Of a stretch of 64,000 bases of DNA, positions 6,640-60,063 are shown piece after piece (the first letter of the stretch is position 1; every line of letters starts with the position of its first letter). The position numbers and the translations under genes were made by a program. Under the pieces are notes generated by a model that made no database searches, was not told the DNA's origin, and saw only the letters and a program-made list of their open reading frames with translations. Location of the stretch: the NCBI GenBank assembly GCA_963811325.1, contig CAWEQT010000001.1, forward strand, positions 2,328,758 through 2,392,757, read 5' to 3'. This DNA comes from an uncultured delta proteobacterium (lineage in GTDB: Bacteria; Desulfobacterota; Syntrophia; Syntrophales; Smithellaceae).

Positions 6640-7006
6640 TAATAATTCTTCTTTCTATAGATGTTGTGTTGCTCTTATCATGCCCTAATAATCAGTTCAG
6701 TTGCGGATAAAAATTAATAAACTGCCATTGGGAATATATACCACACGTTAAGTTAGAATTCTATGGTATTGAGGGGGGCTGTATTGAGGGTTGAGGGTTC
6801 TTGAAAAAGATGTCTTGTTCATGTCATCAATACTACTTACGTTAAGATGGGAGAAGCAGAGTGTTGTGACCTTCCCAACCTATTTTTTATCATAACATAA
6901 ATTCAATGATCCAATCAACTTATCATGGTTTGGGAAGGCATGGAACACAATGTAGTCATGATTGAGAAACCCGGAAAGGAGTATTAGGTCTTCTATTTTA
7001 CGATCA

Positions 7007-7056
7007 ATCTAGCATGTCAATCTGTCATTGACATGCTAGATCATTATTTATATACT
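7007..7056 (+). promoter_or_regulatory. sigma70-type promoter TTGACA-17-TATACT overlapping a perfect 15-bp-arm palindrome (operator candidate)
   Basis: ATCTAGCATGTCAAT (7007-7021), ctgtc, ATTGACATGCTAGAT (7027-7041). The -35 TTGACA is at 7028-7033 and the -10 TATACT at 7051-7056, 34 nt before the ATG at 7090. Confidence 0.55.
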
Positions 7057-7089
7057 CTTAGTTGAAATTGTTGGTATTTTATAAAACTT

Positions 7090-9174: not shown

Positions 9175-10585
9175 CCGGGGCGAAGCGCTACAATCATTTT
9201 TCGCAAGGCAGTTACTGCTTGACAGGGCCAAGACAGCGTTCCAGCAGTTGTCTGGACTGCTGAAAAACGTGACTATCTATCCGGAATCGCACCCTTTCCT
9301 TTTGTCGCTGGTCGAAAAGATTATAATTACTATCGAAGGGCTGTTGGCGGACAGAAAGGAAGTTGCTTTCTATTTCGTGTCTGGAGAATTATTTTTCGAA
9401 ACCAAATCTATGCCCATAGATCAGAGCATTGCTATGCTAGTTGAACAATTTACAAGCCGGGATATAGGCGGGATCATATTTAAACCGGGCATTGCGATCG
9501 AGGAATTCGTCAGACTGGCAGTCCTGATGAACAGGGAGCCTTCGGCACTTGTCGCAGATGGCGGTATTATCAATGTTATTTCGCGTGAAAATATCTCCCA
9601 TATCAATCTCCACAGCGTTCTTCTCGTCGATAAAAAAAGCGGCGGTGCCGCTAAAGAAGAGAAAAGAAAAGCGGCAAAACTGTTTCTGGAAGCGATAGTA
9701 GCCATAAAAGAAATGGTCAAGAACGTCCATTCAGGTAAAACAGTCAACATGCGCAGGATAAACACGGTCGTCCAAAATATGGTGGATAATATACTCGCTA
9801 ACCGGGATACCCTCATTGCCCTAACCAACCTGAAAATGCATAACGAATACACATTTGCCCATTGCGTGAACACATCCATTTTTGCTATTTCCCTGGCGGT
9901 TCATCTGTCGTTGGAAAAAACACAGATTGCTGCGCTGGGAGTTTCCGCCATGCTGCATGATATCGGCAAAGTGCGCATTCAACCCGAAATTATCAACAAA
10001 ACTGGTAATCTTACTGATGAGGAATCTGAAGCCCTTAAGCGTCATCCTATTGAGGGAGCACTTATCCTTTCGGACATCCAGGCAATAACAAAGATAGCTA
10101 TGGTAACCGCATTTGAGCATCATCAGCATGGAGGTGTTGATGGCTATCCCCAGATAGACGGGCATGTTCAGCAACATCCTTTTTCACAAATTATCTCTAT
10201 TGCCGACGCATATGAGGTGCTTACGGCAAGACGGGTCTACTACAACGTTAAAATGCCTCCTGATCAGGTAATCAGTCTTCTGGCAAAAAAGCGGGAAAGC
10301 GATTTTAACGCAGTCCTTGTGAAGGCTTTTATTAACATGATCGGCATTTTCCCCATCGGCACGTTACTGAATCTTTCGAGCGGCGAAGTCGGACTTGTCG
10401 CACATCAGACCAGTGATCTTATGCGCCCACGCGTTTTACTGTTAACGAAATTCGACGGTTCGGAAAAAGAATCCGGTGAAGAAATCAGCCTTCTTGAAAC
10501 AACTGATGGGAAGTATAAACGGGATGTTGCCGGCACCATCGACCCCTTCACAGCAAATATTGATATGAAACAATATTTGGAATAG
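9152..10585 (+). CDS. HD-GYP domain c-di-GMP phosphodiesterase family protein
   Basis: 477 aa with MLHDIGKV (HD) and FEHHQHGGVDGYPQ (GYP). AGGAGG 7 nt upstream. The start overlaps the upstream ORF by 23 nt. Confidence 0.85.
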   Translation: MVDQQSDSRGEALQSFFARQLLLDRAKTAFQQLSGLLKNVTIYPESHPFLLSLVEKIIITIEGLLADRKEVAFYFVSGELFFETKSMPIDQSIAMLVEQFTSRDIGGIIFKPGIAIEEFVRLAVLMNREPSALVADGGIINVISRENISHINLHSVLLVDKKSGGAAKEEKRKAAKLFLEAIVAIKEMVKNVHSGKTVNMRRINTVVQNMVDNILANRDTLIALTNLKMHNEYTFAHCVNTSIFAISLAVHLSLEKTQIAALGVSAMLHDIGKVRIQPEIINKTGNLTDEESEALKRHPIEGALILSDIQAITKIAMVTAFEHHQHGGVDGYPQIDGHVQQHPFSQIISIADAYEVLTARRVYYNVKMPPDQVISLLAKKRESDFNAVLVKAFINMIGIFPIGTLLNLSSGEVGLVAHQTSDLMRPRVLLLTKFDGSEKESGEEISLLETTDGKYKRDVAGTIDPFTANIDMKQYLE

Positions 10586-10724
10586 CTCTACCGAAAACCT
10601 TGCTTAACCATAACGGCAAAGCAAGGAATTTCTACTTTGAGAAAACCATATTTGAAAAAACCGAATAAATAATTGGCAGAAATTTGGCGTTGACAGCGTA
10701 AAATAAAAGATTGCTCCCGTCATC

Positions 10725-10988
10725 ATGGAAAGAAACAAAGAAAATAATCTTCAGCTAAAATATCCCTGCGCATGGATTTATAAAATTATTGGTGTTGATC
10801 AAAACGACATGAAGTCTGCCGTTCTCGAAGTTATTCAGGATCGCGCATGCGTGATAACTCTCTCCCGGAGCAGTGAAACCGCTAAATACCACTGTCTCAA
10901 TGTAGAAATTACCGTGGAAAGCGAATCTCACAGGAAAATGATTTACGAATCTCTAAAAGCTCATCGGGCAATAAAAATGATTTTATAG
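10725..10988 (+). CDS. DUF493/YbeD-family small protein
   Basis: 87 aa. LKYPCAWIYKIIGV... resembles the FPC..f.KviG signature of the UPF0250/YbeD family. Confidence 0.65.
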   Translation: MERNKENNLQLKYPCAWIYKIIGVDQNDMKSAVLEVIQDRACVITLSRSSETAKYHCLNVEITVESESHRKMIYESLKAHRAIKMIL

Positions 10989-11116
10989 GGATTTACCCGC
11001 CAAGCATCAGTAGGGGGGCTGCCCTTCATTAATATCGCTTTCAAAAGATAACGCCGCGGCAAAGGGAGAGACCCCAAAGATAAAAGGAAGCGCTGTCTTA
11101 TCAATCCAATTAAATT

Positions 11117-11155
11117 AAAGCTCTCCGTGACAAGTTGCGGAGAGCTTTAATTTTT
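11117..11155. terminator. rho-independent terminator between convergent genes
   Basis: AAAGCTCTCCG (11117-11127) pairs with CGGAGAGCTTT (11138-11148), followed by AATTTTT. T/A-rich on both sides, so possibly bidirectional. Confidence 0.7.
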
Positions 11156-11233
11156 AAGGAACCATATAATTTTGTGTTTGCTCACTTACCTCGCGGCAAG
11201 CAAAGATATTTGCGCTCGCTGCCAAGTTTAATT

Positions 11234-13087
11234 TTATACAGATAGAATTGCCTCGCGGCCGTTGGCTCTGAATTCCTTCTTGATTTTGTTGAACTCATCA
11301 GGAGTGAGTCTACGATAAGTATTATCACCGCGCTTCCTGAAATAAATCTGCATGCCGGAATTGCGTTCAAGATTGAAATTATCGCGCTTGAAAGGCCGCA
11401 CAATAACTTTCTGGGTATCGGTAACAGGAAACTTCTCAACGGTGCGTATATAATCGGGCATCCATTTGGGATCCATCCCTCCTTCTTTCTGCTGTTTGAT
11501 AAACCAGGCGTAGACATCATCGGGATTAAACTCGACGCCATCTTTAAGCTGGACTGTAATCATGACCTTCTCATCAGCCACTTCACAGGGCGCTCCGTAG
11601 GCAATGGCGCAATCCGCGCACGGAATATTCTGGGCAAAACCAAGAACGCTCTCGGCTGAAAAATTCTCTCCGTCCTTGCGGATCCAGTCATCGGTGCGAC
11701 CGTTGAAAAACATGTAACGTTTCCCATTCACCATCCTGATATGTCCCAAATCACCCGAATGATACCAGCCTTTGCGGAATTTCTGATTGGTCGCTCCCTC
11801 ATTACCGAAATATCCTTCAAATCTGATGTTGTTATCGCCTACCTTGCGGCAGATTTCGCCAACGGCTTTATCGTAGTTGATGAGCGCACCGCTGGCGTCC
11901 GTAATACCAAGCGCGCATTCGCGTCCCTCTTCATCCAATATATGGATGGAGGAATCCACACGGCCTACCGAATCAACAGGGTCTCCGGGACGGTTGGCCG
12001 TGGTAATGACCGCCTCAGTGGAACCGTAGATCTCAAAAATATGATCCATACCCAGATAGCGTTTGAGTTTTATACGATCATTGACCGAAGCGCCGTTGCC
12101 ATAGGCTTTGCGGAATTTATTGCGCGGATGTTTGACCAGGGCGTTTTCTACAGCTTCGCCGCTACCGTATTTGCGCTCCAGAGCATCAATGATATAATGA
12201 AGCGGCTGGCCGACATAGTTGAGAAAAGTAACACCATGAGTGAGCATATCTTCTTCAAATACGCTCGCGGAAAAACGCCTCTTCATTACAAAACTGCCGC
12301 CCACAATCATCTGTGGCAATATTCCGATATACCAGGCGTTGGAATGAAACAAAGGCATCGAAATGTAACCACGGTCATTTTTGTTAAGATGAACCGCCGA
12401 TTGCACCATAAAGCCCGCTCCTACCAATTTGATATGAGTGCATGGCACTCCTTTGGGTAGTCCTGATGTGCCCGACGTATAGATCACAATAACCGGACTG
12501 AAATTATCCGCCTTGACCCGATAGCTTCCAGGCACAGTTATCTTTTCCGCATCTTCAACCGCCTGCTCCAGTGATTTGAATCCGGTTGATTGAAAAGCGT
12601 CCTTATCTCCTACGAAGTAAATATCTTCAGGACCGATCACCTGGACATTTTTAATTATACCTTCTACTTCTTTCAAAGTGCTGGCATTGATTATCAGAAA
12701 TGCTATGCCGGCCTGATCCATGACCTTGGCCAGAGTCTCGCCTCGAAATCCCGAATTAATAGCAAACATGATAGAATTGCTAAGGCCGGCTCCAAAAGAG
12801 GCATAGAGAAATTCGGGGGTATTATCCATATAGACACCGAAAGATAGCCTCTTCTCTTTGCCCAGTCGGCCACTGTCCACCAATTTCTTTCTTACGCTCA
12901 GAAGAAATTGCTCGTAACGCCGGGATTGCAGATAAACTTTCCGATAAGTATATTCACAGCCTTCAAATATGAAAAACACTCGATTACGTCTGAACCAAAA
13001 CTGCCACATAGTCAGTTTTATCATGGTGCCGAAATTTACAAAGCTAAACACATTTCGTATTATTGTTTTAAGATTAATTTTACCCAT
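11234..13087 (-). CDS. AMP-dependent acyl-CoA synthetase (long-chain/FATP-like)
   Basis: 617 aa. The AMP-binding motif IVIYTSGTSGLPKGV and the C-terminal GWYHSGDLG...GRTDD motif are present. Confidence 0.85.
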   Translation of the reverse strand: MGKINLKTIIRNVFSFVNFGTMIKLTMWQFWFRRNRVFFIFEGCEYTYRKVYLQSRRYEQFLLSVRKKLVDSGRLGKEKRLSFGVYMDNTPEFLYASFGAGLSNSIMFAINSGFRGETLAKVMDQAGIAFLIINASTLKEVEGIIKNVQVIGPEDIYFVGDKDAFQSTGFKSLEQAVEDAEKITVPGSYRVKADNFSPVIVIYTSGTSGLPKGVPCTHIKLVGAGFMVQSAVHLNKNDRGYISMPLFHSNAWYIGILPQMIVGGSFVMKRRFSASVFEEDMLTHGVTFLNYVGQPLHYIIDALERKYGSGEAVENALVKHPRNKFRKAYGNGASVNDRIKLKRYLGMDHIFEIYGSTEAVITTANRPGDPVDSVGRVDSSIHILDEEGRECALGITDASGALINYDKAVGEICRKVGDNNIRFEGYFGNEGATNQKFRKGWYHSGDLGHIRMVNGKRYMFFNGRTDDWIRKDGENFSAESVLGFAQNIPCADCAIAYGAPCEVADEKVMITVQLKDGVEFNPDDVYAWFIKQQKEGGMDPKWMPDYIRTVEKFPVTDTQKVIVRPFKRDNFNLERNSGMQIYFRKRGDNTYRRLTPDEFNKIKKEFRANGREAILSV

Positions 13088-33258: not shown

Positions 33259-33495
33259 ATGGCAAAAGAAAAATTTGAAGACGCATTGAAAAAGCTCGAA
33301 GATATAGTAAGGAAGATGGAATCCGGCGATATGCCTTTAGATGAAGCCTTGAAATCTTTTGAAGAAGGAATAAAAAGCATTCGCTTTTGCATGACTAAAT
33401 TAGAAGAAGCGGAACGGCGTGTCGAAATGCTTTTGGGGAAAGAAGATTCCCTGCAGGTAAAGCGTTTTGAGGGAGACGACAGCGATGGAAGGTGA
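33259..33495 (+). CDS. xseB: exodeoxyribonuclease VII small subunit
   Basis: 78 aa. FEDALKKLEDIVRKMESGDMPLDEALKSFEEGI is the canonical XseB pattern. Confidence 0.93.
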   Translation: MAKEKFEDALKKLEDIVRKMESGDMPLDEALKSFEEGIKSIRFCMTKLEEAERRVEMLLGKEDSLQVKRFEGDDSDGR

Positions 33496-34393
33496 TGAGG
33501 GATTCTTAAAAGCGTATTTACAGGACAGGAAGAAAATTGTGGAAGAAGCATTGCAACATTATCTACCCGCTGATGATATTCCGGCAAAGATATATGAGGC
33601 TGTTCGTTACAGTGTTTTTAACGGAGGAAAGCGAATCAGGCCGATTCTCTGCCTGGCGGCGGCGGAAGCGGTTGACGGCGATCTGGCTTCGGCCATGCCG
33701 ATTGCCTGCGCTTTGGAATTGATTCATTCTTACTCCCTGATTCATGATGACTTGCCGGCAATGGACGATGATGATTTCCGGCGTGGCAAGCCTAGCTGTC
33801 ACAAAGCTTTCGGAGAGGATATAGCCATACTGGCCGGCGACGCGCTGCTTACGGAGGCCTTTGTTCTTTTATCCCGAGCGGAAAAAGTCAGATTATCCGG
33901 ATTCTCCGCAGAAAGGCGTTTGGCGGTTATACAGGAAATTGCCTATGCTGCCGGAATTTGCGGCATGGTTGGCGGTCAGGCTCTTGATGTGCTTTCGGGA
34001 AAATCAGAATCCGACGAAATCACGCTGCGGGAAATTCACCGGCGCAAAACGGGAGCTTTAATTGTTGCCGCGGTAAAATCAGGGGCTATTATTTTTAACG
34101 CCGGCAAAAATAAAATTCAATCTCTGGCAGAATACGGAATAAATATGGGTCTGGCTTTTCAGATAGCAGATGACATCTTAAATGTCGAAGGGGACCGTGA
34201 GTTGATGGGCAAGGAAACCGGCAGTGATGCCTCCCGTGACAAACTTACCTATCCGTCTTTGCTGGGAATGGAACTGGCGAAGGAAAAATTAGTAAAGTAT
34301 ATAGACGCGGCAGTGGCGAGTCTTTCCGGTTTTGATGAGAGGGCTATGCCGCTTATTGTCATTGCGCGCTATATAATGGAAAGAAAATCATAG
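33485..34393 (+). CDS. ispA: (2E,6E)-farnesyl diphosphate synthase / polyprenyl synthetase
   Basis: FARM LIHDDLPAMDDDDFRRG and SARM FQIADDILN. ATG 33485 overlaps the xseB stop; the track's upstream start at 33467 is less likely. Confidence 0.9.
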   Translation: MEGDEGFLKAYLQDRKKIVEEALQHYLPADDIPAKIYEAVRYSVFNGGKRIRPILCLAAAEAVDGDLASAMPIACALELIHSYSLIHDDLPAMDDDDFRRGKPSCHKAFGEDIAILAGDALLTEAFVLLSRAEKVRLSGFSAERRLAVIQEIAYAAGICGMVGGQALDVLSGKSESDEITLREIHRRKTGALIVAAVKSGAIIFNAGKNKIQSLAEYGINMGLAFQIADDILNVEGDRELMGKETGSDASRDKLTYPSLLGMELAKEKLVKYIDAAVASLSGFDERAMPLIVIARYIMERKS

Positions 34394-34423
34394 GCAAAAT
34401 TTAATATTGGAAAGGATTTTGTT

Positions 34424-36340
34424 TTGGTAAAGCATCAGGAAACAGTTAATTACAGTGTTCTGAAAAATGTGGAATTCCCCGCGGATATTCGAAAACTTAA
34501 TACTGCCCAACTCAATACTCTGGCACAGGAAGTGAGAGATTTAATTATTCATACGGTTTCTTCCCGTGGCGGTCATCTTGCTGCGTCTTTAGGAGCAGTG
34601 GAATTAACACTGGCTCTCCATTACGTTTTTAATACGCCGCAGGATAAGATTGTCTGGGATGTCGGCCATCAGGCTTACGCGCATAAAATCATTACCGGAC
34701 GTAAAGATACTTTTGCCGATTTGCGCAAACAAAGCGGCATCAGCGGATTTCCAAGAAGGGAAGAAAGCCTCTATGATGTTTTTGATGTAGGACACAGCGG
34801 AACTTCTATCTCGGCCGCCGCGGGATTTACTGAAGCCGGTTGCTTAAAAGGTGATAAAAATAAAATAATCGCTGTTATTGGCGACGGCTCCATGTCCACA
34901 GGCATGGCCTTTGAAGGATTGAATTGGGTGGGAGATCGTAAAAAAAACATGATCATAGTTTTAAACGATAACGAAATGTCTATTTCTTCGAATGTCGGCG
35001 CGATGTCTTCCTATCTGAATCGGGTGATGACCGGCCATACAATAACCACATTGAAAGCGGATATTAAAAGTTTTCTTGAAAGCATTCCCGGCATTGGCGG
35101 AGGTATGGTTAAATTCGCCAGGCAGATAGAAGAATCTCTAAAAACATTTATGATTCCCGGAGCTCTTTTTGAAGAAATGGGATTTACCTATGTTGGTCCG
35201 TTGGAAGGACACCGATTAAAGTACCTCATTAAAAATTTTGAAAATATCAAAGAACTGACAGGCCCTGTGCTCGTTCATGTAATCACAAAAAAAGGCAAGG
35301 GCTACCGGTTTGCCGAAGAAAACCCGCTGACTTATCACGGCGTAGCTCCTTTTAACGTGGAAACCGGTAAAGCTATTTCTCCTCCGTCTGATATTCCAAC
35401 ATATACGAAAGTATTCGGCAGAACTTTAGTTAAACTGGCGCGGGCCGATGCCCGTATTGTGGCTATTACCGCCGCAATGTGTGATGGCACTGGTCTCGAT
35501 CAATTTTGCAAGGAATTCCCAAAACGCTTTTATGACGTGGGTATCGCGGAGCAACATGCAGTAACCTTTGCCGCTGGTTTGGCGGTGGAAGGCTTTGTTC
35601 CCGTCGTTGCCATTTATTCGACTTTTCTGCAACGGGCTTATGATCAGATAGTATATGATGTCTGCCTGCAAAAACTACCGGTTGTTTTTGCCATTGACCG
35701 AGGCGGGCTTGTTGGCGAAGATGGCGCCACCCATCAGGGTCTCTTGGATTATTCTTATTTGCGTTCCATTCCTGATATTATTGTTATGGCGCCTAAAGAC
35801 GAAAATGAACTGCAACACATGCTCAAGACGGCTATTGGCTGTGGTCATCCGGTATCGTTGCGTTATCCGCGGGGTAAAGGAGTAGGGGTCATTCTTGATG
35901 ATGAACCAAAAACGCTGGAAATAGGTAAAGGTGAAGTATTGCGGAATGGGTCCGATCTGGCTATTCTCGCTATCGGTTCGGCGGTCAATCCGGCGCTGAT
36001 TGCGGCCAGGCGGCTCTCCGAGGAAGGTTTTAATATTAAAGTGATCAATGCCCGTTTTGTGCAACCTCTTGACGGAGAAATGGTTTTGAAAACGGCGGCA
36101 ACAATTAAAAAAATTATTACGGTTGAAGAAAATATGCTGCGCGGTGGTTTCGGCAGCGCCGTTTTAGAATTATTGGCCGAAGAAGGTGTCACCGGCGTCT
36201 GGGTGAAGCGATTGGGTATTTCCGATGAATTTGTTAAACATGCCACACAGACCGAGCAGCGCCATAAGTATGGAATTGATGAAGAAGGTATTATTCGGGC
36301 AATAAGAGATATGCTGGCGGGACAATCCGGTATCCAATGA
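34424..36340 (+). CDS. dxs: 1-deoxy-D-xylulose-5-phosphate synthase
   Basis: 638 aa. GHxxxS..HK motifs, ThDP-binding GDGSMSTGMAFEGLN, transketolase-like middle and C-terminal domains. TTG start with GGAAAGGA upstream. Confidence 0.95.
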   Translation: MVKHQETVNYSVLKNVEFPADIRKLNTAQLNTLAQEVRDLIIHTVSSRGGHLAASLGAVELTLALHYVFNTPQDKIVWDVGHQAYAHKIITGRKDTFADLRKQSGISGFPRREESLYDVFDVGHSGTSISAAAGFTEAGCLKGDKNKIIAVIGDGSMSTGMAFEGLNWVGDRKKNMIIVLNDNEMSISSNVGAMSSYLNRVMTGHTITTLKADIKSFLESIPGIGGGMVKFARQIEESLKTFMIPGALFEEMGFTYVGPLEGHRLKYLIKNFENIKELTGPVLVHVITKKGKGYRFAEENPLTYHGVAPFNVETGKAISPPSDIPTYTKVFGRTLVKLARADARIVAITAAMCDGTGLDQFCKEFPKRFYDVGIAEQHAVTFAAGLAVEGFVPVVAIYSTFLQRAYDQIVYDVCLQKLPVVFAIDRGGLVGEDGATHQGLLDYSYLRSIPDIIVMAPKDENELQHMLKTAIGCGHPVSLRYPRGKGVGVILDDEPKTLEIGKGEVLRNGSDLAILAIGSAVNPALIAARRLSEEGFNIKVINARFVQPLDGEMVLKTAATIKKIITVEENMLRGGFGSAVLELLAEEGVTGVWVKRLGISDEFVKHATQTEQRHKYGIDEEGIIRAIRDMLAGQSGIQ

Positions 36341-36394
36341 TTTTTAATTATACCAAATAGCTTTCGTTATTTCTTAAAAGCAAAATGGTATTAA

Positions 36395-37138
36395 ATGAAT
36401 ATGGCCACTCAAAAAATTCGTTTGGACGAATTGCTCGTTAATCGAGGAATCGCGCCCACGCTGGAAAAAGCCCGCGCGCTGATCTTAGCCCGGGCGGTGA
36501 AAATTAATGAAACATATCTGGATAAGGCGGGCGCGCCTGTTGCGGTTGATGCCGAAATACGAATAAAGGGTCAAGACAATCCCTATGTTAGCCGCGGGGG
36601 ATTAAAACTGGAAGCTGCTTTAAAAGAATTTAAACTAAATGTTGAAAATATTGTCGTCCTTGATGTCGGGGCTTCCACCGGAGGCTTTACAGATTGCCTT
36701 TTGCAGGCAGGCGCCAGGAAAGTTTACGCTCTTGATGTAGGTTATGGCCAGTTAGCCTGGAGGTTGCGTGAAGACAGACGCGTAGTCGTAATCGAACGCA
36801 CGAATATTCGTTATTATGACGGTGCTGATTTGGACGAACGGATTGATCTTGTCACAATTGATGTTTCTTTTATTTCTCTGAAAACTGTTATTCCGGCGGT
36901 CTTAAAATTTTTAGGAGACGGGGCGCGGATTCTAGCGCTGATTAAACCGCAGTTTGAAGCCAAAAGGGAAGAAGTGGGAAGTCATGGGGTGGTTAAAGAC
37001 GCCTCTGTTCATGAACGCGTAGTGCGGGATATCAGCGGATTTTGCGTAGCTAAGAATTTAGGGGTTGAAGGAACTTGTGTATCGCCTGTTTTAGGTCCGG
37101 CGGGGAACTGGGAATTTTTTATCCTAGCGCGAAAGTAA
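36395..37138 (+). CDS. tlyA: TlyA-family rRNA 2'-O-methyltransferase (S4 + FtsJ domains)
   Basis: 247 aa. RLDELLVNRG (S4 domain), VSRGGLKL, and the SAM motif LDVGASTGGFTD. Confidence 0.9.
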   Translation: MNMATQKIRLDELLVNRGIAPTLEKARALILARAVKINETYLDKAGAPVAVDAEIRIKGQDNPYVSRGGLKLEAALKEFKLNVENIVVLDVGASTGGFTDCLLQAGARKVYALDVGYGQLAWRLREDRRVVVIERTNIRYYDGADLDERIDLVTIDVSFISLKTVIPAVLKFLGDGARILALIKPQFEAKREEVGSHGVVKDASVHERVVRDISGFCVAKNLGVEGTCVSPVLGPAGNWEFFILARK

Positions 37139-37262
37139 TACCATTTCTAAATCAAAGATGATATTGAGGCAGCTAAGCGGAGGCGACGAGGCTTATTATA
37201 CATACGTTGAGGAAGCCGACAACGACGCCAACAAAAATAGCGTTTTGATTTAGAATTGGTAT
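37138..37262 (+). repeat. 125-bp intergenic element with 20-bp terminal inverted repeats (MITE/ERIC-like), copy 1
   Basis: ATACCATTTCTAAATCAAAG ... TTTTGATTTAGAATTGGTAT. Begins on the last base of the tlyA stop and ends 9 nt before the ispH ATG. About 90% identical to copy 3 and about 80% to the reverse complement of copy 2 (by eye). Confidence 0.9.
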
Positions 37263-37271
37263 AAGAGCAAA

Positions 37272-38999
37272 ATGGAAATTAAACTCGCCAGGACAGCGGG
37301 CTTTTGCATGGGTGTGCGCAGGGCCGTGGATATTGTATTGGATATAGCGCAACATGAAACCCGCCGACGTATTTATACTTACGGTCCTTTGATTCATAAC
37401 CCGCAAACAATTGAATTACTCAAGAGCCGCGGCGTTAAACCTGTTGAAAGTATCGAAGAGATAAAAGACAGGGAAAACGCTATTCTGATTATTCGCGCTC
37501 ATGGTATCGCTCCGGCTGAAAGGAAAAAAATTAAGGAAATCGGCATTAAGGTTGTAAATGCAACCTGTCCTAAAGTCGGTTACGTGCAATCCATCATCAA
37601 AAAACATACTGCTCTTGGTTATACCGTGGTGATCGTAGGCGATAAGGAACATCCGGAGGTTGACGGTCTTTTAGGTTACGCAGGCGAGAAAGGCATTATT
37701 CTGTCCACTTTGGACGATGTGGATAAATTATCTTCCCATGATAAAATTTGTGTTGTCGCTCAAACAACTCAAGATTCAAATAATTACGGCAAGATTGTTG
37801 AAAAAATAAAGAAAAGCTGCTCTAAAGCGGTTGTATTTAACACTATTTGCTCTTCAACTGAACAAAGACAAGCTGAAGTTATAGCAATGGCTGGTGAAAT
37901 GGACGCAATGTTTATCGTTGGCGGAAAAAACAGCGCCAATACCAGAAGGCTGGCTGACCTTGCCCAAAAGCAACAATCTTCCACTTTTCAAATCGAAACT
38001 CCAGCAGAAATGGGAAATATTAATCTAGGTCCCTATAATCGTATCGGGGTTTCAGCAGGCGCTTCCACCCCTAACTGGATTATCGATCGGGTGATGGATA
38101 AAATCATGGAAGGTCAAAGCCGTAAGTTAAAAAACTTGGGTAAATTGCTCAATCTATGGATATGGGCTATCAAAACGGATATTTATTCCGCTGTGGGCGC
38201 AGGGTGTCTTTGTCTGGTTTGCATGCTGTTGCAGAATATACCGGTGAACCTGTCTTTTGTAGCGATTGCCTCTCTTTATGTATATGCAATACATGTCTTA
38301 AATCATTTGATTAGCCGAAAGCCTACTGGTCTTGTCGGCTCTTTTCGGGAAGAAAGCTATCACCATCATAAAAAAATATATTTATACACCGCTTTACTGT
38401 CTATTGTCGCCGCCCTTGCATTGGCATTTAATAATGCAATCATTGTCTTTATTTTTCTATTTGTTATTTCATTTGCCGGTGTGCTTTATAATATGAGGAT
38501 TCTGCCTAATAGATGGCATTTCCGGAGTTTAAAAGATTTGCCCGGTTCAAAAAATATATCTATGTCTGCAGCCTGGGGAATCGTAGCGGCAATCTTGCCT
38601 GCCCTGGGCAAAAATTATTCCTTTAATACCGGTTTAATCGTTGCTTTTTGCTTTACCTTTGGGATGGTTTTTATCCGTTCAGCAATGTCGGATATTCTGG
38701 AAATACAAAGTGATAAATTGATAGGACAGGAAACTATTCCCGTTTTTTTCGGAAAAACGCTGACAATAACCATACTTAAAATTACTTCATTGATATTATT
38801 CACTCTTCTTATTCTTTCTTATCCGGCAGGCTGGAGTACATCTCTAAGTTTTTTTCTGTTACCGTGTATATTATATATATGGATTTGTTTTCAGTTTTGT
38901 GATAAAAAACAAGTGCTTTCCGGGGCTGTTAAGGAAGGCATTCTGGAAACCAGCTATATTATAGCTGGTTTTTGTGTTTTCTTATGGCGTGTTTTTTGA
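37272..38999 (+). CDS. ispH: IspH (HMBPP reductase) fused to a C-terminal UbiA-like polytopic membrane domain
   Basis: Residues 1-285 are IspH (GFCMGVRRA, NATCPKV, NTICSST cluster cysteines, GASTPNW). Residues ~290-575 have about 8 hydrophobic helices with SDILEIQSDKLIGQETIPVFFG, resembling the second Asp-rich motif of UbiA prenyltransferases. Confidence 0.85.
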   Translation: MEIKLARTAGFCMGVRRAVDIVLDIAQHETRRRIYTYGPLIHNPQTIELLKSRGVKPVESIEEIKDRENAILIIRAHGIAPAERKKIKEIGIKVVNATCPKVGYVQSIIKKHTALGYTVVIVGDKEHPEVDGLLGYAGEKGIILSTLDDVDKLSSHDKICVVAQTTQDSNNYGKIVEKIKKSCSKAVVFNTICSSTEQRQAEVIAMAGEMDAMFIVGGKNSANTRRLADLAQKQQSSTFQIETPAEMGNINLGPYNRIGVSAGASTPNWIIDRVMDKIMEGQSRKLKNLGKLLNLWIWAIKTDIYSAVGAGCLCLVCMLLQNIPVNLSFVAIASLYVYAIHVLNHLISRKPTGLVGSFREESYHHHKKIYLYTALLSIVAALALAFNNAIIVFIFLFVISFAGVLYNMRILPNRWHFRSLKDLPGSKNISMSAAWGIVAAILPALGKNYSFNTGLIVAFCFTFGMVFIRSAMSDILEIQSDKLIGQETIPVFFGKTLTITILKITSLILFTLLILSYPAGWSTSLSFFLLPCILYIWICFQFCDKKQVLSGAVKEGILETSYIIAGFCVFLWRVF

Positions 39000-39041
39000 T
39001 ATGGAAGTGCACTTCCGGAAAAAAAGGAGGTTCTAAAGATT

Positions 39042-39641
39042 ATGGTAAGAAAATCGTTCGCTAAATACATATTAATGATTTTTATTTTAACAACAATGGG
39101 TTGCAGCGGATTGCGTTTTTCCCAGTCAGCGCCGGAAGCAAAGGATTTTCACCCGCAAAGAGTGGCTGTGTTTCCGGTGGAAGTATGGAATCATAAAGAA
39201 ATGACTGACTCAAGGGAAGCTGTGGAACAAATTGTCGCGGGTTCATTAGTTGAAAAGAAGTGGTTTCCCAATGTCATTTATGCTGAGAGTCTGAATAAAC
39301 AAATCCAGGTCAATGAAGAATTACGTAAAGCTGTAACTGAGTATCTATCTAAATTGCGTCAGCTTGATTTTTCTGATCCTGATCTGAGCAAAAAAATCGG
39401 CGAATTAGCAAAAATTGACGCGTTTTTGCTGGTGTCCGTTGACGATTGGGAATATACTACAGAACGTGATAAGAAATTGGCGAAGGTTGGCATAACCATG
39501 GAATTATATGATATCTCCACCGGTAAATTAATGTGGAAAGCCGGTCATGATATAATAGAAGATTATATGATAATGAAACCCGATTTGCTTAAAGTTGCCC
39601 AGGATGTTACCAGTAAGATAATTGGTTGCATGCCGCATTGA
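39042..39641 (+). CDS. lipoprotein of unknown function (DUF799/LpoB-like layout, weak)
   Basis: 199 aa. Lipobox LTTMGC. AAGGAGG SD. Confidence 0.6.
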   Translation: MVRKSFAKYILMIFILTTMGCSGLRFSQSAPEAKDFHPQRVAVFPVEVWNHKEMTDSREAVEQIVAGSLVEKKWFPNVIYAESLNKQIQVNEELRKAVTEYLSKLRQLDFSDPDLSKKIGELAKIDAFLLVSVDDWEYTTERDKKLAKVGITMELYDISTGKLMWKAGHDIIEDYMIMKPDLLKVAQDVTSKIIGCMPH

Positions 39642-39684
39642 GTGGGCGAAAAAGATAAATTTTAACCGATTAAGGAGAAATTAG

Positions 39685-39906
39685 ATGAAAGAAGAAGTGC
39701 AAAAAGCTATCGATCTTATAAGACCCAGCCTGCAGGCGGATGGCGGGGATGTAGAACTTATAGATGTCAGCGCAGATGGGATAGTAAAGGTGAAGTTAAC
39801 CGGCGCTTGCCGTGGTTGCCCCATGTCTCAGATGACTCTAAAGATGGGGATAGAAAAAATGATTAAAAAGCAAATACCGGATATAAAGGAAGTAATTGCT
39901 GTTTAA
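39685..39906 (+). CDS. NifU C-terminal domain-like Fe-S assembly protein
   Basis: 73 aa. IRPSLQADGGDVELIDV...KLTGACRGCPMSQMTLK (CxxC) is the Nfu/NifU-C signature. Confidence 0.85.
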   Translation: MKEEVQKAIDLIRPSLQADGGDVELIDVSADGIVKVKLTGACRGCPMSQMTLKMGIEKMIKKQIPDIKEVIAV

Positions 39907-40065
39907 GTTTGTTTTATGGCAATAGCCCGTCAAAATACCTTTAAAAACTTTTTTGTGAATTGACAATTATCAGTGATTTTGATTAACAAAGATTTCCTGA
40001 CAGCCAACTGGTAAGGTATTTTTATTTTGTGTAAATAATTATTATAAGAAGGAGTATAAAGAATT

Positions 40066-40245
40066 ATGGCATATGTGATTACTGACGAATGTATCGCTTG
40101 CGGTTCTTGTGAAAGCGAATGCCCTGTCGAGGCAATTTCTGAAGGCGAAGATAAATATGTTATCGACGCTAAACTTTGTAACGATTGCGGAAATTGTGCC
40201 GATCAATGTCCGGTGGAAGCAATCGTTCCGGGGGATGGAAAATAA
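40066..40245 (+). CDS. 2x[4Fe-4S] ferredoxin (59 aa; below the ORF-track cutoff)
   Basis: MAYVITDECIACGSCESECPVEAISEGEDKYVIDAKLCNDCGNCADQCPVEAIVPGDGK has two CxxCxxCxxxCP motifs. GGAG lies 10 nt upstream. Replaces the spurious track ORF 40109..40393. Confidence 0.9.
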   Translation: MAYVITDECIACGSCESECPVEAISEGEDKYVIDAKLCNDCGNCADQCPVEAIVPGDGK

Positions 40246-40426
40246 TTTATCAGCGACAAAATTACAACTGGGAATAAATCCTAATTCATATAGATATATT
40301 CCCGGTTTCCCCTTTTTAATTACAAACTATCCTCACTTAATGTCCGGCAAGTCTTATTATTTTACGAAAATTAAACCGGGAGTTTTTAAGTAATTAATAA
40401 AAGACCAGGTGTGAAAGGTTTAGTTA

Positions 40427-41074
40427 ATGAAAAAGTTAATTACCTTTGAAGGTGTTGAGGGTTCGGGAAAGTCAACCCAAATAAAACTTGTTGCCGATTA
40501 TTTTGTTAAGAAAAATGTTCCGCTTCTTGTTACTCAGGAGCCATCAGGGACAGACATAGGCCGAAAAATAGGAGGCATTCTTTTTAACAGTGAACATTAT
40601 TATATGTGCGCGGAAAGTGAAATGTTTTTGTTTTGTGCGGCACGGGCACAACATGTTCGGGAGAAAATTTTGCCTGCTTTAGAACAAAACAAAGTTGTTT
40701 TGTGCGACCGGTTTTCTGATGCCACCTATGCCTATCAGGGGGCAGGACGCGGTCTTGATTACGAATTTATCAAGTTAATCAACGACTATTCGGCAATGTT
40801 TTTAAAACCGGACTTAACTTTATTGTTTGATTTGCCGGTAGAAGTTGGACTGCAAAGAGCTATGGATCGAAATAATCGCCTTAAGGAACCTTCTTCTATA
40901 GACAGGTTTGAAAGAGAAAACATTGATTTCCATCAACGGATTCGTGAAGGTTATCTCAATATTTTAAGAAATGATCCAAAACGTTTCCGCTTAATTGACG
41001 CGAACCGTGATGTTAACAAAATTCAAGAAGAAGTGTGCCAGTATATTAGTGATTTTATAAATTTACAAAATTAG
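40427..41074 (+). CDS. tmk: thymidylate kinase
   Basis: 215 aa. ITFEGVEGSGKSTQ P-loop, DRF motif (CDRFSDATYAYQG). Confidence 0.93.
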   Translation: MKKLITFEGVEGSGKSTQIKLVADYFVKKNVPLLVTQEPSGTDIGRKIGGILFNSEHYYMCAESEMFLFCAARAQHVREKILPALEQNKVVLCDRFSDATYAYQGAGRGLDYEFIKLINDYSAMFLKPDLTLLFDLPVEVGLQRAMDRNNRLKEPSSIDRFERENIDFHQRIREGYLNILRNDPKRFRLIDANRDVNKIQEEVCQYISDFINLQN

Positions 41075-45671: not shown

Positions 45672-47240
45672 TCAGAACGGGCTTCCTGTAACGGCGTTCA
45701 ATTTCCCTGTGGTCGAATCGATAGTAAAGGCATAGACAGCGCCGGTATTCACATCTGATGCATAGGCATAGGGCCCTTGGGGGTCAATCGTAACGGTAGT
45801 AAGACTTGCAAAACTTATCCCTGATGAAATTTGCTGAATATTAGTTAATGCTCCATTGGTTCCGATTGAATAAACCCAGATGGTTCCATCATTCCTATTT
45901 GACACATAGGCAAATGCTCCTGATGTATTAGCGTAAACCGTGACTGGGTTAGAATACATCTCTGCAGTCACCGCCGTTCCGGTGCTCAATGACCCATCGG
46001 AATTAATAGTATAGACCGAGATATTGCCGGAACCCATATTGGACACATAGGCATATGCTCCTCCTGATGGGTTAGTGTAAACTGTGACGGACATAGGATA
46101 CGTCCCTGCGGTCACCGCTGTTCCGGTGCTCAATGACCCGTCGGAATTAATCGTATAGACCGAGATATTGCCGGAACCCATGTTGGGCACATAGGCATAT
46201 GCTCCTCCTGATGGATTAGCGTAAATCGTGACGGAGGTAGGATACGCCCCCGCAGTCACTGTCGGGGTATTAAAGGAAGGGATCAATGCTCCGGGTGTGG
46301 TGGTATTATCTATGGTGTAGGCCGAAATAGTACCGTCAGTCATATTGGGCACATAGGCATATGCTCCTGATGAGTTAGCGTAAACCGTGACGGAGGTAGG
46401 ACTTGTCCCGGCAGTAAACGGGCTTCCTGTAACGGCGGTCAATGACCCGTCGGAATTGATGATATAGGCCGAAATAGTGTCGGAACCTATATTGGGCACA
46501 TAGGCATATGCTCCTCCTGATGGGTTAGCGTAAATCGTGACGGAGGTAGGACTTGTCCCGGCAGGGAACGGGTTTCCTGCTGAAACGGGGACGGAGACCA
46601 ATGCCCCTGTGGTCTGATTGATGTCATAGGCCGAAATAGTGTCGGAACCCATATTGGGCACATAGGCAAATTCTCCTGATGGGTTAGCGTAAATCGTGAC
46701 GGAGGTAGGACTTGTTCCGGCAGGGAACGGGTTTCCTGCTGAAACGGGGACGGAGACCAATGCCCCTGTGGTCTGATTGATGTCATAGGCCGAGATGTTA
46801 CCAGGACTGGAATTTGACACATAGGCAAATAGCCCTGATGGGTCAACCGTAACAGGACTGGAACTCATCACGCAGCTCACGGCCACGTCGTACACTGGCG
46901 AGCCGCTGATTGTGCCGCTGCCATTACTGACGACGCAAGTTTGGGAAGGGTTGGTCGGATGTGTTTTTATCGTGACGGAGTAGGCAGTTCCGCTTGTCAG
47001 CGCGGTGGCAAAGGCAAAAGCACCATTGACAGAGATTGTCTGGTCATCTCCTCCATTGTCCTGTAACACCAGCCCGCTGCCGATCATACCGCTGACCGTG
47101 CCGCTAATTGTGTAGTTGTATCCCGGTGAGGTGCCGCAGGACGCCAAAATGGCCACCAGACCAACAGCCCATACGGTCTTGACCAATATCCTCCAAAATA
47201 TTCTAAATTCACGTTTTTTATCTATGGACAGTGCCAGCAT
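45672..47240 (-). CDS. lipoprotein with lactonase-type (YVTN-like) beta-propeller repeats
   Basis: Start moved to ATG 47240 (GGAG 6 nt upstream; lipobox ILASCG). N-terminal Ig-like segment, then about 8 repeats of ..AYVPNMGSxxISAY.I...G.L......AGT.PTSVT.YANPSG... Confidence 0.8.
   Translation of the reverse strand: MLALSIDKKREFRIFWRILVKTVWAVGLVAILASCGTSPGYNYTISGTVSGMIGSGLVLQDNGGDDQTISVNGAFAFATALTSGTAYSVTIKTHPTNPSQTCVVSNGSGTISGSPVYDVAVSCVMSSSPVTVDPSGLFAYVSNSSPGNISAYDINQTTGALVSVPVSAGNPFPAGTSPTSVTIYANPSGEFAYVPNMGSDTISAYDINQTTGALVSVPVSAGNPFPAGTSPTSVTIYANPSGGAYAYVPNIGSDTISAYIINSDGSLTAVTGSPFTAGTSPTSVTVYANSSGAYAYVPNMTDGTISAYTIDNTTTPGALIPSFNTPTVTAGAYPTSVTIYANPSGGAYAYVPNMGSGNISVYTINSDGSLSTGTAVTAGTYPMSVTVYTNPSGGAYAYVSNMGSGNISVYTINSDGSLSTGTAVTAEMYSNPVTVYANTSGAFAYVSNRNDGTIWVYSIGTNGALTNIQQISSGISFASLTTVTIDPQGPYAYASDVNTGAVYAFTIDSTTGKLNAVTGSPF
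46467..46787 (-). repeat. near-identical tandem coding repeats (162 + 159 nt) inside the beta-propeller gene
   Basis: Units start at 46467 and 46629, with the next at 46788. They differ by one 3-nt indel and a few substitutions. A second near-identical 144-nt pair lies at about 45975-46262. Confidence 0.9.
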
Positions 47241-47526
47241 TTTTTCTCCATGTATGCGGATTATTTTTAAAATTGTTTGAGTTTTACTTTTTTGGTGTGG
47301 AAGTATATGAAGAATTATTTCATATGTCAATAAATATTGGCTGCACGAATATTGGCATGATATAATAACCATCGAATGGCCTTGAATTTTACTTAACAAA
47401 ATATTAGTTTACATTAAACGTTTGTTTTCAGATAGTTAACTTGCAATTAAATGTAATATAAAAAATTTAAGCTAACGAATATGGTGGAATATTCAGATAA
47501 GTTAAAGATTGAAAAAGATATAAGCA

Positions 47527-51465: not shown

Positions 51466-51590
51466 ATACCATTTCTAAATCAAAGCTCTATCTTTGTTGG
51501 CAGCGTCGTCAGCTTCCTCAACGTATTATTAATATGCCTCGTCACTTACCTCCTGCCGCCTCGATATCATCTTTGATTTAGAAATGGTAT
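51466..51590 (-). repeat. 125-bp TIR element, copy 2 (inverted relative to copies 1 and 3)
   Basis: ATACCATTTCTAAATCAAAG ... CTTTGATTTAGAAATGGTAT (perfect 20-bp TIR). Starts 2 nt after the SDR stop and ends 43 nt before the next ATG. Confidence 0.9.
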
Positions 51591-59939: not shown

Positions 59940-60063
59940 TACCAATTCTAAATCAAAGATGATATTGAGGCGGCTAGACAGAGGCTACGAGACGTATTAT
60001 ACATACGTTGAGGAAGCCGACAACGACGCCAACAAAAATAGTGCTTTGATTTAGAATTGGTAT
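59939..60063 (+). repeat. 125-bp TIR element, copy 3
   Basis: ATACCAATTCTAAATCAAAG ... CTTTGATTTAGAATTGGTAT (perfect 20-bp TIR). Begins on the last base of the B12-subunit stop and ends 12 nt before the meaB ATG. Confidence 0.9.

What the first reader, a model, noticed from the sequence alone, without database searches (positions are those of the whole stretch)
37272..38999. IspH fused to a UbiA-like membrane domain with a degenerate first Asp-rich motif
This is a single 575-codon ORF. Residues 1-285 are a complete IspH with all three cluster cysteines. Residues ~290-575 form about 8 transmembrane helices.

The membrane domain carries SDILEIQSDKLIGQETIPVFFG, which looks like the second Asp-rich motif plus the G..T.pv..G of UbiA-superfamily prenyltransferases. 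The region where the first NxxxDxxxD motif is expected instead reads HVLNHLISRKPTG.

IspH makes IPP and DMAPP, so tethering it to a membrane prenyltransferase-like domain suggests substrate channelling or membrane anchoring at the last MEP-pathway step. The gene sits at the end of an ispA-dxs-tlyA-(repeat)-ispH cluster. The fusion I know of for IspH is with ribosomal protein S1, not with UbiA.
Basis: partly seen in the sequence, partly recalled or inferred. Interest (0 to 1): 0.62.

Follow-up and report, generated by a model that had tools for sequence, protein, structure and literature searches.

The report
Membrane-anchored IspH-UbiA fusion, remodelled motif
This Smithella gene really does fuse the last enzyme of the MEP isoprenoid pathway (IspH) to a nine-helix UbiA-type membrane domain, but the fusion family was published in 2015; what is new is that this lineage has replaced one of the domain's two metal-binding motifs while keeping the domain under selection.

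Summary
Window 37272-38999 (+) is one 575-codon ORF. Residues 1-285 are a complete IspH and residues ~304-575 are a 9-TM UbiA-superfamily domain (Pfam UbiA 38.2 bits, cut-off 34.2).

The fusion is not an assembly artefact. Independent contigs from four studies span the junction without indels. More than 4,500 homologues in several phyla carry both domains.

The fusion is not new. Rao et al. 2015 (Chem Sci, PMC4746011) described 47 "IspH-UbiA" proteins. Their expression attempts failed and the function is still unknown.

The degenerate first motif is real. Across the family, the canonical NDxxDxxxD is N-[H/R]-x-x-[D/N/E]. In the Smithella clade only the Asn survives: N-R-L-I-[S/G]-R-K-P…G-S-F-R-E-E. 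The lost Asp is the equivalent of AfUbiA D72, whose mutation abolishes GPP binding.

The second motif (D474, E477, D481), R469, K427 and Y406 are conserved. The rebuilt loop is nearly invariant in the clade, and dN/dS of the membrane domain is 0.16.

Best reading: this is a membrane-tethered IspH, probably the housekeeping copy, in a conserved ispA-dxs-tlyA-ispH operon. Its UbiA-fold domain still has a functional polar pocket but is probably not a canonical two-Mg2+ prenyltransferase. Interest is modest.

The parts
37272..38999 (+). ispH::ubiA-like fusion ORF, 575 aa plus stop
   Evidence: junction confirmed in independent contigs
37272..38126 (+). IspH (HMBPP reductase) domain, residues 1-285. 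Cluster Cys are C12 (37305-37307), C99 (37566-37568) and C193 (37848-37850). H42, H127, E129, T165/T166, S221, N223 and S265 are present.
   Evidence: Pfam LYTB E = 1.3e-88; TIGR00216 above cut-off; 3DNF E = 4.6e-68 and aligned to E. coli IspH; Foldseek E = 1e-19; invariant columns
38127..38180 (+). Linker, residues 286-303: end of the IspH C-terminal helix plus a helix (287-301) leading into TM1. pLDDT is lower here (about 69).
38181..38996 (+). UbiA-superfamily membrane domain, residues 304-575. The nine TM helices are 304-320, 327-347, 367-388, 390-407, 426-445, 453-476, 495-516, 525-545 and 551-574.
   Evidence: Pfam UbiA above the gathering score; AF2 model; Foldseek AfUbiA 4tq4 E = 5.5e-5, DGGGPS 7bpu, ApUbiA 4od5
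38292..38354 (+). Remodelled first motif and L2-3 loop, residues 341-361: H-V-L-N344-H-L-I-S348-R-K-P-T-G-L-V-G-S-F-R359-E360-E361. Only the Asn of NDxxDxxxD remains. R359 keeps the canonical N+15 spacing.
   Evidence: canonical roles from PMC4106721
38676..38753 (+). Second Asp-rich motif region, residues 469-494: R469-S-A-M-S-D474-I-L-E477-I-Q-S-D481-K-L-I-G-Q-E487-T488-I-P-V-F-F-G494.
   Evidence: Aligned to the DGGGPS second motif; D481 invariant and R469, G485, E487, T488, G494 at least 90% conserved
37140..37260 (.). 121-bp dispersed repeat with 17-bp terminal inverted repeats, inserted between tlyA and ispH. It is not part of the gene. Most relatives have tlyA ending about 10 nt before ispH.
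33467..37138 (+). Upstream operon genes: ispA (33467-34393), dxs (34424-36340) and tlyA-like FtsJ/S4 methyltransferase (36395-37138).
   Evidence: synteny conserved in the Smithella/Syntrophales loci
39042..39641 (+). Downstream 199-aa predicted lipoprotein with no Pfam match, syntenic with the fusion gene throughout the clade.

Best explanation
The gene encodes a member of the published IspH-UbiA fusion family.

IspH half. It is a fully equipped HMBPP reductase that makes IPP and DMAPP. It sits at the end of a conserved ispA-dxs-tlyA-ispH operon, so it is most likely the cell's working IspH. That last step is inferred, because I could not test whether it is the only copy.

Membrane half. It is a nine-helix UbiA-fold domain. 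Its polar pocket faces the cytoplasm, the same side as IspH, so it holds IspH at the inner face of the membrane.

The pocket is still functional. It keeps:
- the second Asp-rich motif (D474, E477, D481);
- the near-universal UbiA tyrosine (Y406);
- Lys and Arg residues of the kind that bind diphosphate in UbiA enzymes (K427, R469, R359) and the motif-1 Asn (N344).

The first Mg2+ site has been replaced in the Smithella clade. The Asp equivalent to AfUbiA D72 is Ser or Gly. The loop has become a basic, clade-invariant N-R-L-I-S-R-K-P…G-S-F-R-E-E.

My reading is that the domain still binds a phosphorylated isoprenoid, but it probably does not work as a canonical two-Mg2+ aromatic or lipid prenyltransferase. 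It would act on or sense its ligand through a rebuilt, more Arg/Lys-dependent site while tethering IspH to the membrane.

Shown: architecture, fold, motif states, selection and distribution. Inferred: ligand binding, non-canonical chemistry and the housekeeping role.
For: - Architecture and authenticity.
- IspH catalytic residues present and invariant.
- UbiA fold with 9 TM helices.
- All 32 diverse family members hit Pfam UbiA.
- Motif 1 across the family is N-[HR]-x-x-[D 52% / N 26% / E 14%]. The Smithella clade has S or G at +4 (113 of 120) and R-E-E at +15 to +17 (100 of 120, against at most 2 of 197 elsewhere).
- Motif 2 and the pocket residues D481 (100%), R469, K427, Y406, E487 and T488 are conserved across phyla.
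- Clade-specific fixed changes cluster in the two motif regions (353-358, 477, 480, 482).
- Purifying selection within the clade: dN/dS is 0.16 for the UbiA half and 0.08 for the IspH half.
- The rebuilt loop is itself nearly invariant (H341, L346, P351, R359 and E360 in 120 of 120).
- In AfUbiA, N68 and D72 coordinate the Mg2+ that bridges the diphosphate. D72A abolishes GPP binding, and the MenA equivalents lose function: PMC4106721.
- The ispA-dxs-tlyA-ispH::ubiA-lipoprotein-nifU-tmk order is conserved down to 51% identity.
Against: - There is no biochemical datum for any IspH-UbiA protein. Rao et al. could not express the full-length protein.
- The mapping of N344 and S348 onto AfUbiA N68 and D72 rests on three things: position at the end of TM2, the same N+15 Arg spacing as M. 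jannaschii DGGGPS, and the Foldseek superposition. It is not a residue-level structural alignment. Profile methods fail to align this half to solved UbiA structures.
- The invariant E360 and E361 could restore a metal site, which would make the enzyme canonical after all.
- I could not check whether a second, soluble IspH exists in the genome, because the genome search was shut.
Confidence: 0.55

Rival explanations
1. True bifunctional 'Rosetta stone' enzyme, as Rao et al. proposed. The UbiA domain would be an active Mg2+-dependent prenyltransferase fed by IPP and DMAPP made locally by IspH. In the Smithella clade, the lost Asp would be functionally replaced by the clade-invariant E360/E361 pair in the L2-3 cap.
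For: - The second motif, Y406, K427, R469 and N344 are conserved.
- Loss of D(+4) and gain of R-E-E occur together and only in this clade, which looks compensatory.
- The domain is under purifying selection.
- The pocket faces the same side of the membrane as IspH (topology from PMC4106721).
Against: - UbiA enzymes normally use C10 or longer prenyl diphosphates. These need IspA or a polyprenyl synthase in between, so direct channelling from IspH is not obvious.
- D72A alone abolishes GPP binding in AfUbiA.
- Position +1 (Asp in NDxxD) is His or Arg family-wide.
- No acceptor substrate or conserved partner gene emerges from the gene context.
Confidence: 0.25
2. Pure membrane anchor or pseudoenzyme. 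The UbiA fold would only tether IspH to the membrane, for example near membrane-bound low-potential electron donors, and would bind no ligand.
For: - The first motif is non-canonical across the whole family and is lost here.
- Gene context is variable, as expected for a housekeeping ispH.
- The architecture is fixed, and I found no clear standalone copies of this UbiA subfamily.
Against: - A simple anchor would not need nine helices.
- It would not need cross-phylum invariance of charged and polar residues at the canonical active-site positions (D481 100%; R469, K427, Y406, E487, T488 at least 90%).
- The replaced loop would not be expected to be invariant within the clade.
Confidence: 0.15
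3. Assembly or frameshift artefact that joins two separate genes.
For: None found.
Against: - Contigs from four independent studies cross the junction without indels.
- There are 40 genome loci and thousands of proteins with the same 575-aa architecture.
- Both halves are under purifying selection in frame.
Confidence: 0.01

Closest known systems
IspH-UbiA 'Rosetta stone' fusion proteins (Rao, O'Dowd, Li, Wang, Oldfield, Chem Sci 2015; PMC4746011)
   Same: - Same architecture: N-terminal IspH with three Cys, C-terminal 9-TM UbiA-like domain (CDD PT_UbiA_5 according to the paper).
- Same kind of organisms: anaerobic deltaproteobacterial lineages.
- Function of the membrane half is unknown in both.
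   Different: - The paper reports 47 sequences, 'all in sulfate-reducing bacteria', with 'two DXXXD repeats'.
- The family seen here is far larger: more than 4,500 clusters at 90% identity. Source-given names include syntrophic Smithella, Brocadia and other Planctomycetes, Nitrospinae, Nitrospirae and Zixibacteria.
- The first motif is mostly non-canonical. A D(+4)xxx[D/E](+8) arrangement survives in only about 17% of non-Smithella members (33 of 197 have D or E at +8), and it is absent in this clade.
AfUbiA and ApUbiA, archaeal UbiA homologues of solved structure (4TQ3/4TQ4, 4OD5)
   Same: - Best structural matches for residues ~290-575 (Foldseek E = 5.5e-5 to 1e-3, TM-score normalised to target 0.53-0.69).
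- Nine TM helices.
- Long cytoplasmic L2-3 and L6-7 loops after TM2 and TM6.
- The conserved Tyr and the second Asp-rich motif are present.
   Different: - Only 14-19% identity.
- The NDxxDxxxD motif is reduced to N-H-x-x-S.
- The residue equivalent to D72, which is essential for GPP binding in AfUbiA, is Ser.
Archaeal DGGGPS (digeranylgeranylglyceryl phosphate synthase, 6M31/7BPU) and NCBIfam PRK13591 / PRK12872-type prenyltransferases
   Same: - These are the nearest named sequence families.
- The second-motif region aligns (D-x-x-D-x-x-G-D…G…P…G).
- The N…N-x-P-x-R spacing of the L2-3 loop is the same in the wider fusion family.
   Different: - Scores are far below the curated cut-offs (16-45 bits against 238-353).
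- Nothing suggests a glycerol-phosphate acceptor.
- The first motif is not conserved.
IspH-RPS1 fusions (NF000907, Clostridia and Fusobacteria)
   Same: IspH is the N-terminal module of a two-module protein in anaerobes.
   Different: The C-terminal partner there is soluble S1 RNA-binding repeats. Here the NF000907 match covers only residues 1-285 (319 bits against a cut-off of 624).

Membership tests
IspH / LytB (PF02401, TIGR00216) | Family HMM match above the curated cut-off over the full domain | tested here: met
   PF02401 297 bits (cut-off 24.5), profile 1-266 of 267. TIGR00216 281.2 bits (cut-off 187.85).
IspH / LytB (PF02401, TIGR00216) | Three [4Fe-4S]-ligating cysteines and the catalytic His, Glu, Thr, Ser and Asn residues (E. 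coli C12, C96, C197, H41, H124, E126, T167, S225, N227, S269) | tested here: met
   C12, C99, C193, H42, H127, E129, T165/T166, S221, N223 and S265 align to the solved IspH structures. They are invariant or nearly invariant in the family.
IspH / LytB (PF02401, TIGR00216) | Trefoil IspH fold | tested here: met
   Foldseek: 3dnf E = 1.1e-19, TM-score to target 0.81; E. coli 3szu TM-score to target 0.83, rmsd 2.0 Å.
IspH / LytB (PF02401, TIGR00216) | HMBPP reductase activity | not testable with these tools
   Needs an enzyme assay or complementation of an ispH-depletion strain.
UbiA prenyltransferase superfamily (PF01040) | Pfam HMM match above the gathering score | tested here: met
   38.2 bits in the whole protein and 41.3 bits for the domain alone, cut-off 34.2. 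The match covers only profile positions 68-234 of 250, which is after motif 1.
UbiA prenyltransferase superfamily (PF01040) | Eight- or nine-TM UbiA fold with two pseudo-symmetric four-helix bundles | tested here: met
   The AF2 model has 9 TM helices. Foldseek matches AfUbiA, DGGGPS, ApUbiA, UBIAD1 and Rv3806c.
UbiA prenyltransferase superfamily (PF01040) | First Asp-rich motif NDxxDxxxD at the end of TM2 | tested here: not met
   The sequence is N344-H-L-I-S348-R-K-P-T352, so only the Asn is kept. Clade-wide, +1 is Arg and +4 is Ser or Gly. The residue mapping is inferred from TM2 position and N+15 Arg spacing.
UbiA prenyltransferase superfamily (PF01040) | Second Asp-rich motif DxxxD at the end of TM6 | tested here: met
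   D474-I-L-E477-I-Q-S-D481 is a conservative ExxxD. D481 is invariant and position 477 is Asp in 79% of other family members. The region aligns to the DGGGPS second motif.
UbiA prenyltransferase superfamily (PF01040) | Near-universal active-site Tyr on TM4 (AfUbiA Y139) and a basic diphosphate ligand (K146) | tested here: met
   Y406 at the end of TM4 is invariant, and K427 is invariant or Arg. Equivalence to Y139 and K146 is inferred from position, not from a residue-level superposition.
UbiA prenyltransferase superfamily (PF01040) | Mg2+-dependent prenyl transfer | not testable with these tools
   No biochemical data exist for any IspH-UbiA protein.
IspH-UbiA fusion family (Rao et al. 2015) | IspH at the N-terminus fused in frame to a C-terminal UbiA-like (PT_UbiA_5) domain; total length about 575-585 aa | tested here: met
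   The C-terminal domain's nearest relatives are almost all fusions of about 575 aa.
IspH-UbiA fusion family (Rao et al. 2015) | 'Two DXXXD repeats' in the UbiA domain, as stated in the paper | tested here: not met
   Only the second (E477xxxD481) is present. The first is absent in the Smithella clade and in most of the family.
IspH-RPS1 fusion (NF000907) | C-terminal S1 repeats; full-length match at or above 624 bits | tested here: not met
   319 bits, covering residues 1-285 only. There is no S1 domain.
DGGGPS / archaeal GGGP prenyltransferases (NF009512, NF009522 and others) | Equivalog HMM at or above its cut-off | tested here: not met
   16-18 bits against cut-offs of 278-353.

The most novel reading that the evidence does not exclude
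In the Smithella/Syntrophales clade, the UbiA-fold domain may have stopped being a metal-dependent prenyltransferase. It could instead be a metal-independent, Arg/Lys-based receptor for a membrane prenyl (di)phosphate. Such a receptor could allosterically couple membrane isoprenoid pools to the last MEP-pathway step, as a built-in feedback sensor. Alternatively it could catalyse a new, non-prenyl-transfer reaction on such a lipid.
Probability: 0.15. Interest if true: 0.6.

Novelty: new variant of a known kind. Interest (0 to 1): 0.3.

Why it matters
IspH is an essential enzyme and a drug target, and how flux at the end of the MEP pathway is handed to membrane-bound isoprenoid consumers is poorly understood.

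A large family of anaerobes from several phyla welds IspH to a UbiA-fold membrane protein. The named members include alkane- and propionate-degrading syntrophs and anammox bacteria. Nobody has yet assigned an activity to the membrane half.

Two results here narrow the hypotheses. The family's first metal site is non-canonical, and one clade has replaced it outright while conserving the rest of the pocket. That points to specific residues to test: E360/E361, S348, D481, K427 and Y406.

This is an incremental addition to a published observation, not a new kind of system.

Tried and rejected
1. A single-sequence phmmer search of the membrane half against PDB sequences gave only spurious IL-36Ra hits.
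2. A 32-sequence family profile against PDB found only the second-motif region of DGGGPS and AfUbiA. hmmalign would not align the first half to the DGGGPS fragment. The motif-1 equivalence therefore rests on fold, position and spacing, not on a sequence alignment.
3. I looked for a conserved partner gene in distant lineages.
   - A small GT2 glycosyltransferase lies next to the gene in Brocadiales and in two deltaproteobacterial genomes.
   - These GT2s are not orthologous (28% identity over 96 aa), and none is in this window. I rejected this as a functional clue.
   - DUF502, UbiD and UbiE neighbours in Brocadia are not conserved elsewhere.
4. I looked for standalone versions of this UbiA subfamily.
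   - Most shorter hits carry IspH C-terminal residues, so they are N-terminally truncated fusions.
   - About a dozen carry none. The one I looked up sits on a 997-bp contig starting at base 18.
5. Rfam over 36000-40500 found nothing meaningful.
7. Model coordinates are not exposed, so I could not measure distances in the predicted pocket or at the IspH-membrane interface.
Full report
**1. The observation**

Window 37272-38999 (+) is a single ORF of 575 codons with no internal stop.

Residues 3-278 match Pfam LYTB (E = 1.3e-88). They match the NCBIfam IspH equivalog TIGR00216 above its cut-off, at 281 bits against 187.85.

The N-terminal 285 residues match Aquifex aeolicus IspH (3DNF) at E = 4.6e-68 and align end to end with E. 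coli IspH. This places C12, C99 and C193 on the three cluster cysteines. It places H42, H127, E129, T165/T166, S221, N223 and S265 on the catalytic residues. These columns are invariant or nearly so across the family.

The C-terminal half matches Pfam UbiA above the gathering score. It scores 38.2 bits in the whole protein and 41.3 bits alone, against 34.2. The match covers only profile positions 68-234, which is after the first Asp-rich motif.

**2. It is not an artefact**

- Logan contigs from four runs in four different studies cross the domain junction (38100-38160) with no insertion or deletion. Two of them match the stretch with no differences.
- Forty loci from Smithella and other Syntrophales genomes encode the same protein of about 575 aa at 51-95% identity.
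- The protein database returns more than 4,500 clusters at 90% identity. All 240 listed carry both Pfam domains.

**3. Fold**

An AlphaFold2 model built on 59 sequences has mean pLDDT 85.9 and pTM 0.79.

After the IspH trefoil and a linker helix (287-301) it shows nine TM helices: 304-320, 327-347, 367-388, 390-407, 426-445, 453-476, 495-516, 525-545 and 551-574. So there are nine helices, not about eight. The long loops after TM2 and TM6 are as in UbiA structures.

Foldseek against the PDB gives IspH structures first (E about 1e-19). It then gives AfUbiA (4TQ4/4TQ3, E = 5.5e-5 to 8e-5), DGGGPS (7BPU/6M31), ApUbiA (4OD5/4OD4), UBIAD1 and the Rv3806c phosphoribosyltransferase.

With IspH in the cytoplasm and TM1 running inward to outward, loops L2-3, L4-5 and L6-7 are cytoplasmic. 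These loops are rich in Arg and Lys, while the opposite loops are short and nearly uncharged; this can be read directly from the sequence. That is the canonical UbiA topology, with the pocket on the cytoplasmic face (PMC4106721).

**4. The fusion is already known**

- They report 47 IspH-UbiA proteins, "all in sulfate-reducing bacteria". The membrane half is classed as PT_UbiA_5.
- They state that "two DXXXD repeats" are present.
- They propose membrane localisation and local IPP/DMAPP supply.
- They could not express the full-length protein.
- Only one later paper in the library mentions the fusion at all.

**5. Size and spread of the family**

An exhaustive search of 1.84 billion representatives with the membrane half alone found 852 clusters at 50% identity with E ≤ 1e-3.

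- Of the top 150, the full-length ones are all fusions of about 560-610 aa.
- Most shorter ones carry IspH C-terminal residues at their N-terminus, so they are truncated fusions.
- The apparently standalone hit that I looked up sits at the edge of a 997-bp contig.
- I found no clear standalone form of this UbiA subfamily.

Source-given names include Smithella and Smithellaceae, Thermodesulfobacteriota, Nitrospinae, Nitrospirae, Candidatus Brocadia and other Planctomycetes, and Zixibacteria. This is much wider than "sulfate reducers".

**6. The motifs**

In canonical UbiA enzymes the first motif is NDxxDxxxD and the second is DxxxD. In AfUbiA:

- N68 and D72 hold the Mg2+ that bridges the diphosphate.
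- D198 and D202 hold the second Mg2+.
- N68A and D72A abolish GPP binding, and the MenA equivalents lose function.
- Y139 is the most conserved residue of the superfamily (PMC4106721).

I counted residues from the conserved Asn at the end of TM2 in 317 full-length fusions.

| Position | Non-Smithella members (n = 197) | Smithella clade (n = 120) |
|---|---|---|
| 0 | N 90% | N |
| +1 | H or R 77% (Asp in canonical enzymes) | R |
| +4 | D 52%, N 26%, E 14% | S or G (113 of 120) |
| +8 | V or A mostly (D or E about 17%) | variable (A in 77 of 120) |
| +11 to +15 | N-[E/D]-P-x-R | [V/I]-G-S-F-R |
| +16, +17 | not an acidic pair | E-E |

The N…N-x-P-x-R spacing of the non-Smithella members is identical to NDIFDIEIDRINKPSR in the M. 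jannaschii DGGGPS sequence printed. The full Smithella-clade loop reads N-R-L-[I/L]-[S/G]-R-K-P-x-G-x-x-G-S-F-R-E-E. This window has H at +1 and S348 at +4.

The combination "no acid at +4, acidic pair at +16/+17" occurs in 100 of 120 Smithella-clade sequences. It occurs in at most 2 of 197 others.

The motif is partly degenerate family-wide and fully replaced in this clade.

The second motif is intact in conservative form: D474-x-x-E477-x-x-x-D481. D481 is invariant. R469, G485, E487, T488, G494, K427, Y406, W435 and P443 are at least 90% conserved across phyla.

**7. Selection**

Within the Smithella clade (pairs at least 85% identical), Nei-Gojobori dN/dS is 0.08 for the IspH half and 0.16 for the UbiA half.

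The replaced loop is itself nearly invariant. H341, L346, P351, R359 and E360 are each present in 120 of 120 sequences.

Positions that are fixed differently in the clade and in the rest of the family cluster in the two motif regions: 353-358, 477 (D to E), 480 (G to S) and 482 (R to K).

This is remodelling of a pocket under constraint, not decay.

**8. Context**

Pfam confirms xseA, xseB, ispA, dxs and a tlyA-like methyltransferase upstream. Downstream are a 199-aa lipoprotein with no Pfam match, a NifU-like protein, tmk and holB.

The order ispA-dxs-tlyA-ispH::ubiA-lipoprotein-nifU-tmk is kept in essentially all Smithella/Syntrophales loci, down to 51% identity. tlyA usually ends about 10 nt before ispH.

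In this window a 121-bp element with 17-bp terminal inverted repeats has inserted between them. Two more copies lie at 51468-51588 and 59941-60061.

In distant lineages the context is different and not conserved. Neighbouring GT2 genes in Brocadiales and in two deltaproteobacteria are not orthologous, and none is present here.

The operon position suggests this is the working IspH. I could not test for a second copy because the genome search was shut.

**9. Interpretation**

- Identity is essentially certain: a member of the IspH-UbiA family, with a catalytically complete IspH tethered to the cytoplasmic face of the membrane by a UbiA-fold domain.
- The charged and polar residues conserved across phyla at canonical active-site positions argue against a mere anchor.
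- Family-wide replacement of the +1 Asp by His or Arg, and clade-specific loss of the D72 equivalent, argue against canonical two-Mg2+ prenyl transfer.
- I therefore favour (0.55) a still-functional, ligand-binding pocket with a rebuilt first site. Its chemistry or sensing role is unknown.
- The main rival (0.25) is that E360/E361 restore a metal site and the protein is the bifunctional enzyme Rao et al. envisaged.
- A pure anchor gets 0.15 and an artefact about 0.01.

**10. Earlier notes of this scan**

Earlier notes report the same architecture in two other genomes. One follow-up reached the same reading: a known 2015 family whose motif was rebuilt in Syntrophales. I re-derived this independently here. 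It is not independent evidence.

**11. Verdict**

- The fusion itself is already published.
- The clade-specific motif replacement and the much wider taxonomic spread are modest additions.
- Interest is 0.3.

Noticed in passing
window 37140-37260, 51468-51588, 59941-60061; also L001 ~3127, L004 ~5788, L010 ~1987, L013 1861-1992, L017 3239-3267: A dispersed intergenic element of about 121 bp has 17-bp terminal inverted repeats (ACCATTTCTAAATCAAA…TTTGATTTAGAATTGGT). It gives 6 arm hits in the window against 0.69 expected. It sits at different intergenic positions of the same ispA-dxs-tlyA-ispH operon in different Smithella genomes, so it looks like a mobile MITE/REP-like element. It has no Rfam match.
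   Followed up: partly
window 39042-39641 (+): A 199-aa predicted lipoprotein (lipobox …TTMGC) has no Pfam family. It lies immediately downstream of ispH::ubiA. It is syntenic with it in essentially all Smithella/Syntrophales loci (38-89% identity) but not in other phyla.
   Followed up: partly
L041/L042 (Candidatus Brocadia) 6722-13023; L046 4756-8447: In Brocadiales the fusion gene is flanked by a divergently transcribed GT2 glycosyltransferase and a downstream DUF502 membrane protein. The two ORFs overlap by 4 nt in L046. In Brocadia a UbiD-family decarboxylase and a UbiE/MenG methyltransferase (quinone-tailoring genes) follow. This arrangement is not conserved in other lineages.
   Followed up: partly
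L043 9850-10689, L044 7921-8703: In two deltaproteobacterial genomes on large contigs (3.2 and 4.7 Mb) a GT2 glycosyltransferase of 260-279 aa lies immediately downstream of the fusion gene. A dus gene lies upstream and a HIT-family gene follows. This GT2 is not orthologous to the Brocadia one.
   Followed up: partly
L005 and L023: One MAG ('Syntrophaceae bacterium fen_1165') carries two fusion genes on different contigs, 82% and 73% identical to the query. Each has its own dxs-tlyA upstream. The MAG is either a mix of two strains or holds a true duplication of the operon.
   Followed up: no
window 45672-47399 (-): A 575-aa ORF is made of many degenerate repeats of the type '…PTSVTIYANPSGxxAYVPNMGSxxISAYxIN…', which look like beta-propeller or lactonase-type repeats, behind a signal or TM segment. 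I did not examine it.
   Followed up: no
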